Positions 11,851 through 25,330 of a stretch of DNA of 29,113 bases are shown one piece after another. A program made the position numbers and the translations under genes. Location of the stretch: assembly GCA_050049835.1 (NCBI GenBank), contig JASFVM010000001.1, positions 1 to 29,113 on the forward strand. Direction: 5' to 3'. The stretch comes from Gammaproteobacteria bacterium. Lineage in GTDB: Bacteria; Pseudomonadota; Gammaproteobacteria; SZUA-229. The notes beneath the pieces were generated by a model. The model did not search any database and was not told the DNA's origin. It was given only the letters and a program-made list of their open reading frames with translations. Numbering within the stretch: position 1 is the first letter of the stretch; each line of letters starts with the position of its first letter.

Positions 11851-12119
11851 TTCACCACAGAGGCACAGAGGGCACAGAGACTTTTGTTGTTTTCTACAGG
11901 AGCGACATCAGTCGCGAGCTATAGCAGTTAGCTTTTTCAGCCAATCATTTCACTTCGTGGACAAAATGATGAAGGCTAAATACACCTATAGATATCATTC
12001 GCGACTGATGTCGCTCCTACGAAATAAACAGTAACAACCTGTGTGTCTGGTACGCTCAAAAGGATTTATGTTTACAACATAGAATATTTTCTCTGTGTTC
12101 TCTGTGCCTCTGTGGTGAA
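11851..12119. repeat. Nested inverted-repeat element, copy 1 (outer CACAGAG arms, inner REP-like arms)
   Basis: Outer arms 11851-11880 / 12090-12119 (28/30 match). Inner arms 11899-11917 / 11999-12017 are a perfect 19-bp inverted repeat, GGAGCGACATCAGTCGCGA. Confidence 0.9.
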
Positions 12120-12148
12120 AAAAAAGGGTTATAACCATAAGTGGCATT

Positions 12149-12168
12149 CCCTGTGCCCCTGTGGTGAA
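12149..12168. repeat. Extra degenerate outer arm
   Basis: CCCTGTGCCCCTGTGGTGAA versus CTCTGTGCCTCTGTGGTGAA at 12100-12119 (18/20). Confidence 0.75.
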
Positions 12169-16689: not shown

Positions 16690-16724
16690 CAACGCAAAGA
16701 CGCCAGGGCGCAAAGCACATAAAG
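16690..16724. repeat. Solo CGCAAAG-type repeat arm
   Basis: CAACGCAAAGACGCCAGGGCGCAAAGCACATAAAG; same unit spacing as the CACAGAG arms; no partner arm seen. Confidence 0.45.
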
Positions 16725-16736
16725 ATTTATGAAGCT

Positions 16737-16827
16737 TGTAGCCCGGATGTAACGAAGTGAAATCCGGGAAAGCCTGTTAATACCGATACTGTTAACCCGG
16801 ATTACGTTTCACTTCATCCGGGCTACA
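16737..16827. repeat. GTAG-tagged REP doublet (REPIN-like)
   Basis: TGTAGCCCGGAT..ATCCGGG (16737-16768) and inverted CCCGGAT..ATCCGGGCTACA (16796-16827); each is an internal hairpin; 27-nt spacer. Confidence 0.85.
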
Positions 16828-16865
16828 GTACTGTATCCAGTTAAAATATCTGGTACAGCATATGC

Positions 16866-16964
16866 TCTCGCGGAGACGCCGGGAAAGCAGAGGGAGGCCA
16901 GTTCAATATGCGCCTCATCAGGTAAAACATATGCTAGCTCTGCGTACTCTGCGACTCAGCGGGA
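16866..16964. repeat. Degenerate CGCAGAG-type inverted-repeat pair
   Basis: 16866-16892 versus reverse complement of 16938-16964 (TCCCGCTGAGTCGCAGAGTACGCAGAG): 20/27. Confidence 0.55.
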
Positions 16965-22426: not shown

Positions 22427-23176
22427 TTATGATTGACCATGCAGCCAGTCGTCCAGATATTGCAGGCTATCATAACGGGTCAAATCTATTTGCAAAGGCG
22501 TTATTGAAATATAATTATGCTCAACGGCATGAAAATCAGTGCCCTCGCCCGCATCCTGTGCGGCACCCGGCGGACCGACCCAGTACATCGGGTTGCCACG
22601 CGGATCCGTTTGCCTGATAACACCCTCTGACTTGTGCCGGTTTCCCAACCGTGTCACTCTGATGCCCCTGATTTCACTCCAGGGAACATCGGGCACGTTG
22701 ACGTTCAGAATATTCCTCTGCTGCAGGGGCCCGTTGCGCAAACGATCTATTATACTCGAAATGGCCTTGACGCCCGTTTCATAATACTGCGGGTCATAAC
22801 TGGCCATGGACACCGCGACCGCCGGAAAACCGAGGAAGCGCCCTTCCATCGCTGCCGCCACTGTGCCCGAATAAAGCACGTCATCACCCATATTGGCGCC
22901 GGCATTGATACCGGACACAACCATATCCGGCTCCTCATCGAGCAAGCCGGTAACAGCGAGATGCACACAGTCCGTCGGCGTGCCATTTACAAAATAATAT
23001 CCGTTCTCCCCGATATGAACACGTAGCGGCCGCTCCAGGGTTAAAGAATTACTGGAACCACTGCGGTCACGTTCAGGAGCCACCACGGTGACTGAATCAG
23101 TTGCAGAAAGGGTTTCAGCCATCGCACCTAAACCAGGGGCGCGATAGCCATCATCATTGCTCAGCAGGATATGCAC
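22427..23176 (-). CDS. surE: 5'/3'-nucleotidase SurE
   Basis: [54 protein letters not shown]. Confidence 0.97.
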
Positions 23177-23228
23177 GTTAAACTTGGACTATAAATTACA
23201 ACAGACTAATGATACAGCATCCGGACGC

Positions 23229-23774
23229 ATGAACGACGACTCAGAGCAAGATAATGAAGATGACGATGATCTGTTTCGGCAGGCAATGAAAGGCGTGGCA
23301 CCACTGAAAGTCGATAACAGAATCCGGCACAAGCCACCACTGCGAAAGCCCCCCGGGCATCACCCGGGGTGTGAGCCCGCTGAAACCAGTGAGCGCTTCA
23401 CCGCAGGCATGTATGAAGAGCAATGCCCGGAAAACCTTTATTTCGAGCGCGCCGGCGGCGCCCAGAAATCCGTCATCAGGAAATTGCGCGGGGGCAAGCT
23501 GACTGCTGATGCCATACTGGATTTACACGGTCTGACGGTCGAACAGGCCCGCCTGCAGCTGGCCGACTTCCTGCAAGAATGCCGGCAGTACGGCTACCGG
23601 CATGTCATCATCATCCACGGCAAGGGCTTCCGTTCCCAAAGCAGGCCCGTGATCAAGCCGATGGTCAACCGCTGGCTAAGACAAGCGTATGAAGTGCTGG
23701 CGTTTTGCAGTGCCCGGCCGAAAGACGGTGGCACCGGCGCGGTGTATGTGCTGCTGCGCAGATCCAGGGACTAG
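23229..23774 (+). CDS. Smr/MutS2 domain protein (SmrA-like)
   Basis: LF..AM.GV.PL, LDLHG, IIHGKG, V..WL, AF.SA...DGG.GAVYVLL. ATG 23229 avoids overlap with surE. Confidence 0.93.
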   Translation: MNDDSEQDNEDDDDLFRQAMKGVAPLKVDNRIRHKPPLRKPPGHHPGCEPAETSERFTAGMYEEQCPENLYFERAGGAQKSVIRKLRGGKLTADAILDLHGLTVEQARLQLADFLQECRQYGYRHVIIIHGKGFRSQSRPVIKPMVNRWLRQAYEVLAFCSARPKDGGTGAVYVLLRRSRD

Positions 23775-23782
23775 GAAAAACA

Positions 23783-23995
23783 TTCACCACAGAGGCACAG
23801 AGGTTTATTACTGTTTATTTCGAAGGAGCGAATGTAGTCGCGAATTAAATAGATAAGGATTTCTTGGCTTTATTTACAGTGAAATATAATGACTGAAACC
23901 GCCAGGATTGTAACCACTAGCAATTTAAGTTCGCGACTAAATCGTTCCAACAGAAAACAACAAAATACTCTGTGTCTCTGTGCCTCTGTGGTGAA
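23783..23995. repeat. Nested inverted-repeat element, copy 2 (opposite orientation to copy 1)
   Basis: Outer arms 23783-23802 / 23976-23995 (20-bp perfect); inner REP-like arms about 23825-23843 / 23931-23948; linkers identical to copy 1. Confidence 0.9.
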
Positions 23996-23998
23996 TAA

Positions 23999-25330
23999 TT
24001 AATCCTTTTTTTCCTGCGCCAACAGCCGTGCGGTCATGAAGTTCTCGGCAAGTGCATAGTAAATCGGTTTCTTGCACACCAGCTTCGAGGCTCCGGATGC
24101 AATTAACGATGTTGCCATCAGAGCGAGCACCAGATCCTGGTTGTTGGTCATCTCCATAACGATCACGAAAGCGGTGATCGGCGTCTGCACCACCCCCGAA
24201 AAATAACCCACCATGCCAAGGATGACGATAGTTGATGCCAGCTCCGGTGGAAACAGTGCGGCAAGGCCACTGCCGAGTCCAGCACCACTTGCCAGTGATG
24301 GTGCAAAAATACCACCGGGGATGCCGCTGAGGTATGAGGCAACTGTTGCCAGTATTTTATACACTGGATACATCAGCCCGGTTTCTACAGCACAATCAGC
24401 AGAACCGGTACAGGAAACAATCTGCTTCGCCTCAAGGTAACCTGTTCCAAATGCATGGCCACCGCTTAATATGCCAATGGATGCAATGATCAATCCACAG
24501 ACGCCGGCGACCAGCAAGTAGTGCTGCTGTAGCAGCGGACGCAGTTTTCTTGAGCCATGAATCAGCACATAGCTGAAGCCGCCACCCAGCAAGCCGCCAG
24601 CGATGCCGCACACAACAACGCCAAGCCATACCCAGCTGAAATCAAGATGGACCGGTGAGGTGCCGTAATAGTTGTAGTTGTCCTGATGCACATAGATTGC
24701 CATCATTCCCGCCAGGATGACTCCCAGCAGAATCATGTCGCTGTTGCGACGATCAAATGAACGCGCCATTTCTTCAATTGCAAAGATAATACCCGCAATG
24801 GGCGTATTGAAGGCAGCTGCAATCCCTGCCCCGCCGCCAGTCATGATCAAACCTCGTTCGAGGTAAGATGCTGGCAGGTGGACATATCTCCCCAGCGAAT
24901 ACATGATGGCCGCACCAAGATGCACAGTGGGTCCTTCACGGCCAATTGACGCACCGGAAAACAGTCCCATCAACGTCAGCAACACCTTGCCGATGGCAAT
25001 CCTGAACGAGAGCAGTTGCTCTGCCAGCTCCTTGCCACCGCGTCCTTCGATGGCAATCAGCGTTTGCGGAATGCCACTGCCTTCCGCGCCCGGGAAAAAC
25101 CTGCGTGTCAGCCATACAATCAACATCAGGCCGAGCGGTGTTATAGCAAAGCTGAACCATGGATTTTCACTGTATACAGCACGATAAAAGTGATCACCTT
25201 TTTCGCCAAGCAGGGCAAATATTGCAGCAACGACACCGACCAGTATGGCGCCACCCCAGAAGATCAGTCGGGTTTTCCAGATAGTTGGCTTGAACAGTCG
25301 TTGCCGGGTGAGGCGGATTTGCTGACGCAT
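23999..25330 (-). CDS. ClC-family Cl-/H+ antiporter (no CBS domains)
   Basis: GSGIP, GREGP (gating Glu), IEEM (internal Glu pair), GIFAP, C-terminal PIY. Confidence 0.93.
   Translation of the reverse strand: MRQQIRLTRQRLFKPTIWKTRLIFWGGAILVGVVAAIFALLGEKGDHFYRAVYSENPWFSFAITPLGLMLIVWLTRRFFPGAEGSGIPQTLIAIEGRGGKELAEQLLSFRIAIGKVLLTLMGLFSGASIGREGPTVHLGAAIMYSLGRYVHLPASYLERGLIMTGGGAGIAAAFNTPIAGIIFAIEEMARSFDRRNSDMILLGVILAGMMAIYVHQDNYNYYGTSPVHLDFSWVWLGVVVCGIAGGLLGGGFSYVLIHGSRKLRPLLQQHYLLVAGVCGLIIASIGILSGGHAFGTGYLEAKQIVSCTGSADCAVETGLMYPVYKILATVASYLSGIPGGIFAPSLASGAGLGSGLAALFPPELASTIVILGMVGYFSGVVQTPITAFVIVMEMTNNQDLVLALMATSLIASGASKLVCKKPIYYALAENFMTARLLAQEKKD

What the first reader, a model, noticed from the sequence alone, without database searches (positions are those of the whole stretch)
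23783..23995. Second, inverted copy of the nested element: linkers identical, core diverged
Against copy 1 (reverse complement), the outer 20-mer matches 20/20, linker TTTTGTTGTTTTCT 14/14 (11882-11895 vs 23952-23965) and linker CGAAATAAACAGTAA 15/15 (12020-12034 vs 23808-23822). The inner REP loops, GTAG tags and the core (87 vs 81 nt) differ greatly. The shared asymmetric linkers indicate the composite spread as a unit, and conserved frame around a variable core suggests selection on the frame or core exchange. It fills the smr/ClC convergent gap, 8 and 3 nt from the stop codons.
Basis: partly seen in the sequence, partly recalled or inferred. Interest (0 to 1): 0.68.

Follow-up and report, generated by a model that had tools for sequence, protein, structure and literature searches.

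The report
Decayed REP doublet nested in octamer-arm hairpin
This is the second, inverted copy of a selfish-looking hairpin repeat, a worn-out REP pair sitting inside a frame of 8-base repeats, wedged between two tail-to-tail genes. Its "conserved frame, variable core" pattern is what such repeats normally show.

Summary
At 23783-23995 lies an inverted second copy of the composite at 11851-12052. Both exact runs (14 and 15 nt), the 20-nt ends and the 8 and 3 nt distances to the smr and ClC stop codons are as stated.

- The exact runs were used to define the "linkers". The anatomical linkers are 14/19 and about 19/22 identical, much like the whole frame (85-86%).
- The cores are weakly colinear (z 2.2), not clearly unrelated, and match nothing in this genome, phages or plasmids.
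- Only these two copies carry these linkers. Their shared A/B asymmetry argues that they descend from one composite.

What it is:
- The inner part is a decayed GTAG-type REP doublet (REPIN). This family has over 112 copies in a complete same-genus genome and about 18 here.
- The outer arms are tandem-octamer arrays: 130 arm matches here, and tens to hundreds per genome in 13 of 18 sampled genera of the bacterial family.
- The same kind of arms frames all three PDDEXK_3 (GxxExxY) nuclease genes of this genome.
- About half of the REP doublets in the relative lie inside such arms, so the nesting is not random.

Variable spacers between conserved REPs are a published REPIN property. Earlier notes of this scan reported the octamer-arm and nuclease pairing on other DNA.

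The parts
23157..23774 (+). smr gene (Smr domain protein); stop codon TAG at 23772-23774, 8 nt before the element
   Evidence: ORF list; Pfam PF01713, E 2.3e-27
23783..23803 (.). B-side outer arm: TTCAC plus two CACAGAGG octamer units. The third unit is missing, as in copy 1's B side.
   Evidence: exact copy of the genome-wide 20-mer (32 exact copies)
23804..23824 (.). Linker B. It contains the 15-nt run 23808-23822, identical to the reverse complement of 12020-12034.
23825..23844 (+). Decayed REP, GGAGCGAATGTAGTCGCGAA. It has three substitutions from the genus consensus GGAGCGACTTTAGTCGCGAA, its tag reads GAAG instead of GTAG, and its stem is reduced to 4 bp.
23845..23929 (.). 85-nt core (the REPIN spacer). 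It is AT-rich and only weakly colinear with copy 1's core. It has no match elsewhere.
23930..23948 (-). Decayed REP' (TTCGCGACTAAATCGTTCC; on the minus strand GGAACGATTTAGTCGCGAA). Its tag reads GTTG instead of GTAG.
23949..23965 (.). Linker A. It contains the 14-nt run 23952-23965, identical to the reverse complement of 11882-11895.
23966..23995 (.). A-side outer arm with three octamer units, ending in ...CTCTGTGCCTCTGTGGTGAA
23999..25330 (-). ClC chloride channel gene; stop codon at 23999-24001, 3 nt from the arm. Its C-terminus is about 9 codons shorter than in the empty-site ortholog L043.
11851..12052 (.). Copy 1 of the composite, in the opposite orientation. Its parts are arm 11851-11880, linker A 11881-11898, REP 11899-11918, core 11919-11997, REP' 11998-12017, linker B 12018-12036 and decayed B-side arm 12037-12052.
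12100..12168 (-). Two further half-arms (12100-12119 and 12149-12168) in tandem behind copy 1. They resemble the half-arm arrays seen elsewhere in the genome.

Best explanation
The element is a non-coding, hairpin-forming intergenic repeat with two nested layers.

Inner layer: a decayed REPIN, that is, two inverted GTAG-type REP hairpins of the genus-wide family GTAGGAGCG(G/A)CTTTAG(C/T)CGCGAA, separated by an unusually long 85-nt spacer.

Outer layer: a pair of inverted arms built from two or three tandem CACAGAGG octamers. These arms belong to a high-copy repeat class of this bacterial family. In its gene-bearing form the same class of arms frames a small PDDEXK_3 (GxxExxY) nuclease gene.

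Shown here:
- The composite was inserted into a junction where smr and ClC otherwise abut.
- It shares an oriented, asymmetric frame with copy 1.
- The frame is 85-86% identical between the copies and the spacer much less.
- REP doublets of this genus lie inside such arms far more often than chance allows.

Inferred:
- The composite was copied once as a unit in this lineage, using whatever machinery or arm-to-arm recombination moves octamer-arm cassettes.
- Since then the REP family has been decaying in this genome, which holds about 18 degenerate REPs and no RAYT flanked by them.
- The terminal 20 nt of the arms stay at the family consensus because that family is still active or being homogenised.
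- The unpaired spacer drifts and accumulates indels fastest.

I see no evidence of a dedicated cellular function. At most it acts as a 3'-end RNA hairpin for the two convergent genes.
For: Anatomy and identities:
-.
- Long hairpin, z = -8.9.

Shared asymmetry:
- A-A is 82% and B-B 76% identical, against 62-71% for the cross comparisons.

REP family:
- At least 112 copies in the complete same-genus genome G005.
- 18 hits at up to 4 mismatches in this genome.
- Short matches in 8 of 10 same-genus genomes and in none of 14 other genera of the family.

Outer arms:
- 104 hits of the 20-mer in 47 clusters, 32 of them exact.
- 61 to 271 arm matches per genome in five same-genus genomes.
- Matches in 13 of 18 genera of the family, with near-zero controls.

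Arms frame nuclease genes:
- All three PDDEXK_3 genes of this genome.
- Eleven of 15 in the genus (eight on both sides, three on one), including CACAGAG-type arms.

Nesting is not random:
- 17 of 33 REP doublets sampled in G005 have an arm within 110 nt. The first batch gave 10 of 20, binomial P about 7e-6 against a generous 10% expectation.
- In this genome, the nine REP loci whose flanks I read all carry an octamer- or nonamer-type arm on at least one side.

Insertion and position:
- The orthologous gap is empty in L043, L049 and L050.
- Arm clusters sit at 3' ends of genes: 17 convergent, 13 tandem and 1 divergent junctions, against a 19/60/22% background, P = 7e-6.

Literature:
- REPIN spacers are less conserved than the REPs (PMC3116915).
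- The same is seen in G005, where similar arms enclose unrelated 22-26-nt spacers.
Against: - No RAYT flanked by these REPs was found. The Y1_Tnp genes of this genome and of G005 score below the NCBIfam RAYT cut-off (48-76 bits against 80) and have no REP within 1.5 kb.
- The mobilising enzyme of either layer is unknown, and no transposition intermediate or target-site duplication was seen.
- Composites also sit at the same two gene junctions in some sister species (L044 and L046 for ClC/smr, L058 for aat). Both copies could therefore be old, and their similarity could be due to gene conversion rather than to a copying event.
- None of this genome's three nuclease-bearing cassettes has the CACAGAG arm variant.
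- An 85-nt spacer is far longer than the 8-26 nt typical of the family, and its origin is unexplained.
- The draft genome is 83% complete and breaks at repeats, so copy counts are lower bounds.
Confidence: 0.62

Rival explanations
1. Both composites are old residents of their gene junctions. Their identical runs come from ectopic gene conversion or concerted evolution between dispersed copies, which homogenises the shared frame but cannot cross the dissimilar cores.
For: - Arm + linker + REP stands next to the ClC stop in sister species L044 and L046. A full composite follows aat in L058.
- The A-side frame of copy 2 is 82% identical to its paralog and 77% to the L044 ortholog, a small difference.
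- Mismatches within the frame are somewhat clustered (three long runs, P about 0.005).
Against: - The arm starts 3 nt after the ClC stop here, but 23-25 nt after a roughly 15-codon longer ClC tail in L044 and L046. The insertions may therefore be independent.
- Other species have an empty gap or different contents at both sites.
- Conversion tracts of 14-15 nt flanked by mismatches on both sides would be unusually short.
Confidence: 0.2
2. Two independent nestings: REP doublets insert preferentially into the loop of octamer-arm hairpins, and the two copies only look like one unit because they entered two sibling cassettes.
For: - REP doublets occur inside arms of different sequence variants, with linkers of 19-64 nt.
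- In G005, similar spacers (L029, L106) lie in different arm variants.
- Many arm pairs in this genome hold no REP at all.
Against: - Both linkers, which are not complementary to each other, are shared in the same arrangement. The REPs sit at the same distances, and the same B-side arm is shortened in both copies.
- No REP-free cassette with these linkers exists in the genome.
Confidence: 0.1
3. The element is a host-serving structure: a bidirectional transcription terminator or mRNA 3'-end stabiliser for smr and ClC, or a paired array of binding sites for a regulator, kept by selection on the frame.
For: - It sits within 3-8 nt of two stop codons and forms a very stable hairpin.
- Arm clusters are strongly enriched at convergent junctions.
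- Paired tandem-octanucleotide sites at variable distance were read as global-regulator binding sites in Geobacter metallireducens (PMC2700814).
- One metatranscriptome contig ends exactly at the smr stop.
Against: - No terminator-like site was found, and the T tract is on the wrong side of the stem.
- There is no Rfam family, only generic long-hairpin hits.
- The element is absent from the same gap in L043, L049 and L050, and other species hold different contents there.
- The REPs and their GTAG tags are decaying.
- The RNA evidence comes from low-depth assembled contigs that break at repeats.
Confidence: 0.08

Closest known systems
REPINs: REP doublets forming hairpins, associated with RAYT transposases (Bertels and Rainey 2011, PMC3116915)
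   Same: Two inverted REP hairpins with a spacer fold into one long hairpin. The spacer is less conserved than the REPs. The elements are extragenic and high-copy in a relative. One arm pair (copy 1) carries symmetric changes on both sides.
   Different: No RAYT gene flanked by these REPs was found. The family is low-copy and degenerate in this genome. The spacer is 79-85 nt instead of the family's usual 8-26 nt. The doublet lies inside a second, unrelated inverted-repeat layer.
GTAG-tagged REP families (Di Nocera et al. 2013, PMC3733652); Pseudomonas putida 35-bp REP (from my own knowledge)
   Same: The genus consensus GTAGGAGCG(G/A)CTTTAG(C/T)CGCGAA has the GTAG tag at one end and a short GC-rich stem-loop. 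From memory, it closely resembles the P. putida REP (GTAGGAGCGGGTTTACCCGCGAA...).
   Different: In copy 2 both tags are mutated (GAAG, GTTG) and the stems are shortened. That paper's main text mentions neither 'nested' nor 'composite' arrangements.
Paired tandem-octanucleotide 'predicted global regulator binding sites', classes 1-3, of Geobacter metallireducens (Aklujkar et al. 2009, PMC2700814)
   Same: Arms of three or four tandem 8-nt units occur on opposite strands at variable distance. The class 2 consensus TCTCCGTS(Y) is the reverse complement of the CACGGAGA-type unit seen here.
   Different: They were described as regulator sites, not as mobile cassettes. No link to REPs or to a nuclease gene was reported in the passages I read.
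Octamer-arm hairpin cassettes that carry a GxxExxY (PDDEXK_3) nuclease gene, as noted by earlier agents of this scan on other genomes
   Same: The arm design is the same. In this genome all three PDDEXK_3 genes are framed by such arms. Gene-less copies sit at tight gene junctions.
   Different: Here the cargo position holds a REP doublet instead of a gene. The association is unpublished as far as my searches show, and its mechanism is unknown.
BIMEs of Enterobacteria: mosaics of REPs and defined linker motifs (background in PMC2817692; details from my own knowledge)
   Same: A composite of palindromic units in alternating orientation with recurring linkers, placed at the 3' ends of genes.
   Different: BIMEs combine REPs of one system. 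Here two unrelated repeat systems are nested.

Membership tests
REP / REPIN (RAYT-associated) | Short imperfect palindrome with a GTAG (or CGTC) tag at one end | tested here: met
   The genus consensus GTAGGAGCG(G/A)CTTTAG(C/T)CGCGAA has the tag and a 5-bp stem. In copy 2 both tags are mutated and the stems shortened; copy 1 keeps one intact tag.
REP / REPIN (RAYT-associated) | Two REPs in inverted orientation with a spacer, folding into one hairpin | tested here: met
   The 85-nt spacer is atypically long for the family, where 8-26 nt is usual.
REP / REPIN (RAYT-associated) | High copy number within the genome | tested here: not met
   About 18 hits at up to 4 mismatches in this 83%-complete draft. 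The criterion is met in the relative G005, with at least 112 copies.
REP / REPIN (RAYT-associated) | A RAYT (Y1 HUH transposase) gene flanked by the same REPs | tested here: inconclusive
   Y1_Tnp genes exist but score 48-76 bits against a cut-off of 80 for NCBIfam REP_Tyr_transpos. None of the 12 inspected loci has a REP within 1.5 kb. One copy in this genome is cut by a contig end and another has an in-frame stop.
Octamer-arm hairpin cassette (PDDEXK_3 / GxxExxY-associated; Geobacter class-2-like paired sites) | Inverted arms, each made of 2-5 tandem 8-9-nt units | tested here: met
   TTCAC + CACAGAGG x2-3 on both sides
Octamer-arm hairpin cassette (PDDEXK_3 / GxxExxY-associated; Geobacter class-2-like paired sites) | Variable interior between near-identical arms; many gene-less copies | tested here: met
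   47 clusters with interiors of 48-342 nt and unrelated content
Octamer-arm hairpin cassette (PDDEXK_3 / GxxExxY-associated; Geobacter class-2-like paired sites) | Gene-bearing copies in the same genome: a PDDEXK_3 gene between such arms | tested here: met
   Three of three genes in this genome and 11 of 15 in the genus with an arm on at least one side. None in this genome has the CACAGAG variant, but L095, L092 and L093 in the genus do.
Octamer-arm hairpin cassette (PDDEXK_3 / GxxExxY-associated; Geobacter class-2-like paired sites) | Mobility catalysed by the nuclease | not testable with these tools
   The only evidence is insertion polymorphism at orthologous sites.
MITE derived from an insertion sequence | Terminal inverted repeats with target-site duplication and a parent IS sharing the ends | tested here: not met
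   No duplication is visible at either copy. No transposase-bearing parent was found. Interiors are unrelated among copies.
Intrinsic (Rho-independent) terminator | GC-rich stem followed by a U tract | tested here: not met
   No site in 23500-24300. Arms are typically preceded by T runs and followed by A runs.
Any curated RNA family (Rfam 15) | Covariance-model match at the gathering score | tested here: not met

The most novel reading that the evidence does not exclude
Octamer-arm cassettes may act as a general frame whose central slot is repeatedly filled or swapped. The slot can hold a PDDEXK_3 nuclease gene, a REP doublet, other REP types or unique DNA. REPINs would then hitch-hike on, or specifically target, this second hairpin system. 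The window's pair would be one composite mobilised as a unit by the arm machinery, a previously undescribed interplay of two selfish hairpin-repeat systems.
Probability: 0.25. Interest if true: 0.6.

Novelty: new variant of a known kind. Interest (0 to 1): 0.35.

Why it matters
On its own, the second copy is an ordinary ageing repeat. Its conserved arms and drifting spacer need no special selection or core capture.

Three wider points deserve attention:
1. In this uncultured wetland gammaproteobacterial lineage, REP doublets lie inside a second hairpin-repeat system about five times more often than my rough 10% chance estimate.
2. That second system, the tandem-octamer arms, is the one that frames GxxExxY nuclease genes. 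I found it in print only as presumed regulator sites in Geobacter.
3. These elements make up the whole spacer of many convergent gene pairs, and here one trims the ClC C-terminus.

If the nesting reflects targeting or co-mobilisation, it offers a handle on how both kinds of element move.

Tried and rejected
- Nitrosomonas origin. I guessed this from GC content and genome size. Related contigs are instead titled uncultured Gammaproteobacteria or Thiotrichaceae MAGs, and the runs that hold the window are wetland metagenomes.
- Curated RNA family. Nothing reached the gathering score, and only generic miRNA-precursor-like hairpin hits appeared below it.
- Captured phage or plasmid DNA in the cores. 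No blastn match.
- More copies with these linkers. There are none in the genome: the other 14-mer hits, one exact and four with one mismatch, have no arm or REP beside them and look like chance. The metagenome scan gave five hits, none with an arm or REP.
- The copy-2 core as a remnant of the roughly 530-nt element that sits in the orthologous REP doublet of L046 and L044. I thought I saw this by eye, but local alignments are no better than shuffles (z -1.1 to 2.0).
- Core flipped between the copies. Not so here (z 0.25), although a flipped spacer does occur in G005 (L036 and L115).
- Pair-specific co-variation of the two outer arms. Only marginal (11.0 against 12.2 mismatches, permutation p 0.04).
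- Intrinsic terminator. None found.
- Reads from other samples. Logan contigs break at the repeat, and the joints come from other arm pairs. There is no usable evidence on transcription ends or on an empty site.
- RAYT flanked by REPs. Not found.
- Literature search for the repeat sequences themselves. No paper found.

Full report
**Observation**

The sequence at 23783-23995 is as described. An exact 20-nt end, TTCACCACAGAGGCACAGAG, stands at 23783-23802, and its reverse complement at 23976-23995. The 14-mer TTTTGTTGTTTTCT (11882-11895) recurs on the minus strand at 23952-23965. The 15-mer CGAAATAAACAGTAA (12020-12034) recurs on the minus strand at 23808-23822.

The 15-mer occurs nowhere else in the 2.66-Mb draft genome. 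The 14-mer has one other exact hit, C244:6248-6261, which has no arm or REP beside it. That hit, and the four hits with one mismatch, look like chance matches.

The flanking genes are an Smr-domain gene ending at 23774 and a ClC channel gene on the minus strand with its stop at 23999-24001. The element therefore fills the convergent gap to within 8 and 3 nt. The whole region folds into one long hairpin of -83.6 kcal/mol, z = -8.9 against shuffles. Copy 1 does the same, z = -13.4.

**How alike the two copies are**

I aligned copy 1 with the reverse complement of copy 2.
- The frame (arm + linker + REP) is 86% identical on the A side (56 of 65 ungapped positions) and 85% on the B side (46 of 54).
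- The two exact runs were in effect used to define the 'linkers'. From the last octamer unit to GGAGCG, the A linker is 14/19 identical. From CGCTCC to the arm, the B linker is about 19/22.
- With mismatches placed at random in such a frame, a run of 14 or 15 is unremarkable (P about 0.08-0.09 each). The three long runs of 19, 15 and 14 together are unusual (P about 0.005), but I judged that after seeing the data.
- The cores (79-81 nt against 85 nt) align with 50 matches in 70 ungapped columns plus 27 gap columns. The score beats shuffles only modestly (z 2.2, p 0.03), and only in the colinear orientation (flipped: z 0.25).

So the frame is evenly about 85% identical, the terminal 19-20 nt of the arms are perfect, and the core is much more diverged but probably homologous.

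The two copies share their asymmetry. A against A is 82% and B against B 76%, while A against the reverse complement of B is 62-71%. The B-side arm lacks its third unit in both. This supports descent from one already composite ancestor.

**The inner layer**

The inner arms belong to a GTAG-type REP family with the genus consensus GTAGGAGCG(G/A)CTTTAG(C/T)CGCGAA.
- A complete same-genus genome (G005) has at least 112 copies within 3 mismatches.
- Short matches to REP plus linker occur in 8 of 10 same-genus genomes and in none of 14 other genera of the family.
- In G005 the REPs usually stand as inverted doublets with spacers of 8-26 nt.
- This genome has only about 18 mostly degenerate hits.
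- In copy 2 both GTAG tags are mutated (GAAG, GTTG) and the stems are shortened. Copy 1 has two perfectly complementary arms that share two loop changes relative to the consensus.
- RAYT-like Y1 genes exist in this genome and its relatives. They fall below the NCBIfam RAYT cut-off, and none of the 12 inspected loci has a REP within 1.5 kb.

The system's defining REP-RAYT link is therefore not shown.

**The outer layer**

The 20-mer has 104 hits at up to 3 mismatches, 32 of them exact. They fall into 47 clusters, mostly convergent pairs that enclose 48-342 nt of unrelated sequence, plus tandem half-arm arrays.
- A degenerate arm pattern gives 130 matches here and 61 to 271 per genome in five same-genus genomes. 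It matches in 13 of 18 genera sampled in the family, with reversed-pattern controls near zero.
- Of the 31 clusters with callable neighbours, 17 lie between convergent genes, 13 between tandem genes and 1 between divergent genes. The background is 19/60/22% (P = 7e-6). The arms often stand 2-15 nt from stop codons.

I followed a lead from earlier notes of this scan and searched for PDDEXK_3 (GxxExxY) genes.
- All three in this genome sit between inverted octamer arrays.
- In the genus, 8 of 15 have arms on both sides and 3 more on one side, including CACAGAG-type arms.
- I found no paper that links this gene family to such repeats.
- Aklujkar et al. 2009 described paired tandem-octanucleotide sites at variable distance in Geobacter metallireducens. 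Their class 2 unit is the reverse complement of the CACGGAGA-type unit here, and they read these sites as regulator-binding sites (PMC2700814).

**The nesting is not random**

- In G005, 17 of 33 sampled REP doublets have an octamer arm within 110 nt by a regex, and more by eye. The first batch gave 10 of 20, P about 7e-6 against a generous 10% expectation.
- In this genome I read the flanks of nine REP loci. All nine carry an octamer- or nonamer-type arm on at least one side.
- Linkers in G005 vary in length (19-64 nt) and sequence. Similar arms often enclose unrelated spacers, whereas spacer length clusters at 22-26 nt.
- That is the pattern published for REPINs, where the spacer is less conserved than the REPs and what matters is length and hairpin capacity (PMC3116915).
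- One G005 pair (L036, L115) has its spacer flipped relative to the frame.

**The element is an insertion**

- In sister species the ClC-smr junction is empty, with the genes abutting (L043), or carries only a short gap (L049, L050).
- In L044 and L046 an arm + linker + REP stands beside ClC, and in L045 and L047 arms with other contents.
- In L046 the REP doublet encloses a roughly 530-nt non-coding element with its own terminal inverted repeats.
- The junction after aat, where copy 1 sits, shows the same turnover, including a full composite in L058.

Both sites are therefore hot spots. I cannot tell whether the two copies here are recent copies of one another or old residents homogenised by conversion.

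**Searches that found nothing**

- No Rfam family.
- No terminator-like site.
- No phage or plasmid match.
- No third copy in metagenome contigs.
- No significant similarity of the cores to the ortholog's insert.
- Contigs of public wetland runs break at the repeat and give no usable evidence on RNA ends or on an empty site.

**Verdict**

There is no evidence for special selection on the linkers or for core exchange.

The element is a decayed REP doublet nested in an octamer-arm hairpin cassette. The specific finding is ordinary. The non-random nesting of two hairpin-repeat systems, one of them tied to GxxExxY nuclease genes, is the part worth following.

Noticed in passing
G000 contigs C65:8623-8973, C187:6375-6722, C148:7275-7616 (loci L081, L082, L080): All three PDDEXK_3 (GxxExxY) nuclease genes of this genome lie between inverted tandem-octamer arrays of the CGCAAAG or CGCAGAG type. 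One of the genes carries an in-frame TGA.
   Followed up: partly
L046:3940-4470; also L044, L014, L020, L010, L004 and G005 loci L111, L128, L130, L132, L140: A roughly 530-nt non-coding element with its own terminal inverted repeats of about 45 nt (ggtttcgcc...ggcgagttac) sits in the centre of REP doublets in relatives, splitting them into apparent single REPs. Rfam TwoAYGGAY (RF01731) matches at 44-57 bits in three of these loci.
   Followed up: partly
G005 loci L036 and L115: In these two composites the arms and linkers match best in inverted orientation, while the 24-nt spacer matches in direct orientation. The core has been flipped relative to its frame, as expected from recombination between the inverted REPs.
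   Followed up: partly
window 23996-24010 compared with L043:3823-3870: The ClC protein ends ...KKD, 3 nt before the arm. In the ortholog without the element it runs on about 9 codons and abuts smr directly. The insertion seems to have trimmed the C-terminus.
   Followed up: no
G000 C217:126-363: Five half-arms stand in the same orientation with a 54-nt period (20-nt arm end plus a 33-37-nt AT-rich spacer). This is a tandem array of half elements, superficially CRISPR-like but with near-identical spacers.
   Followed up: no
G000 C278:87-838, C253:2683-3056, C261:3457-3894; window about 16690-16964: A second GTAG-type REP family (GTAGCCCGGATGCAGCGAAGCGGAATCCGGG) and a further arm family (CCGCAAATGAACGCGAATGGACGCAAAT) also occur inside or beside CACAGAG arms. 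Intergenic space here is a mosaic of several repeat systems.
   Followed up: no
window 23889-23999: A 36-codon ORF (ATG at 23889) runs from the core through REP', linker A and the arm to a TAA. It has no Shine-Dalgarno sequence and no counterpart in copy 1, so it is probably spurious.
   Followed up: no
window 23538-23774: A 237-nt metatranscriptome contig (run X12, 0 mismatches) ends exactly at the last base of the smr stop codon, 8 nt before the arm. Its depth is only 3.7 and assembled contigs break near repeats, so this shows no transcript end.
   Followed up: no
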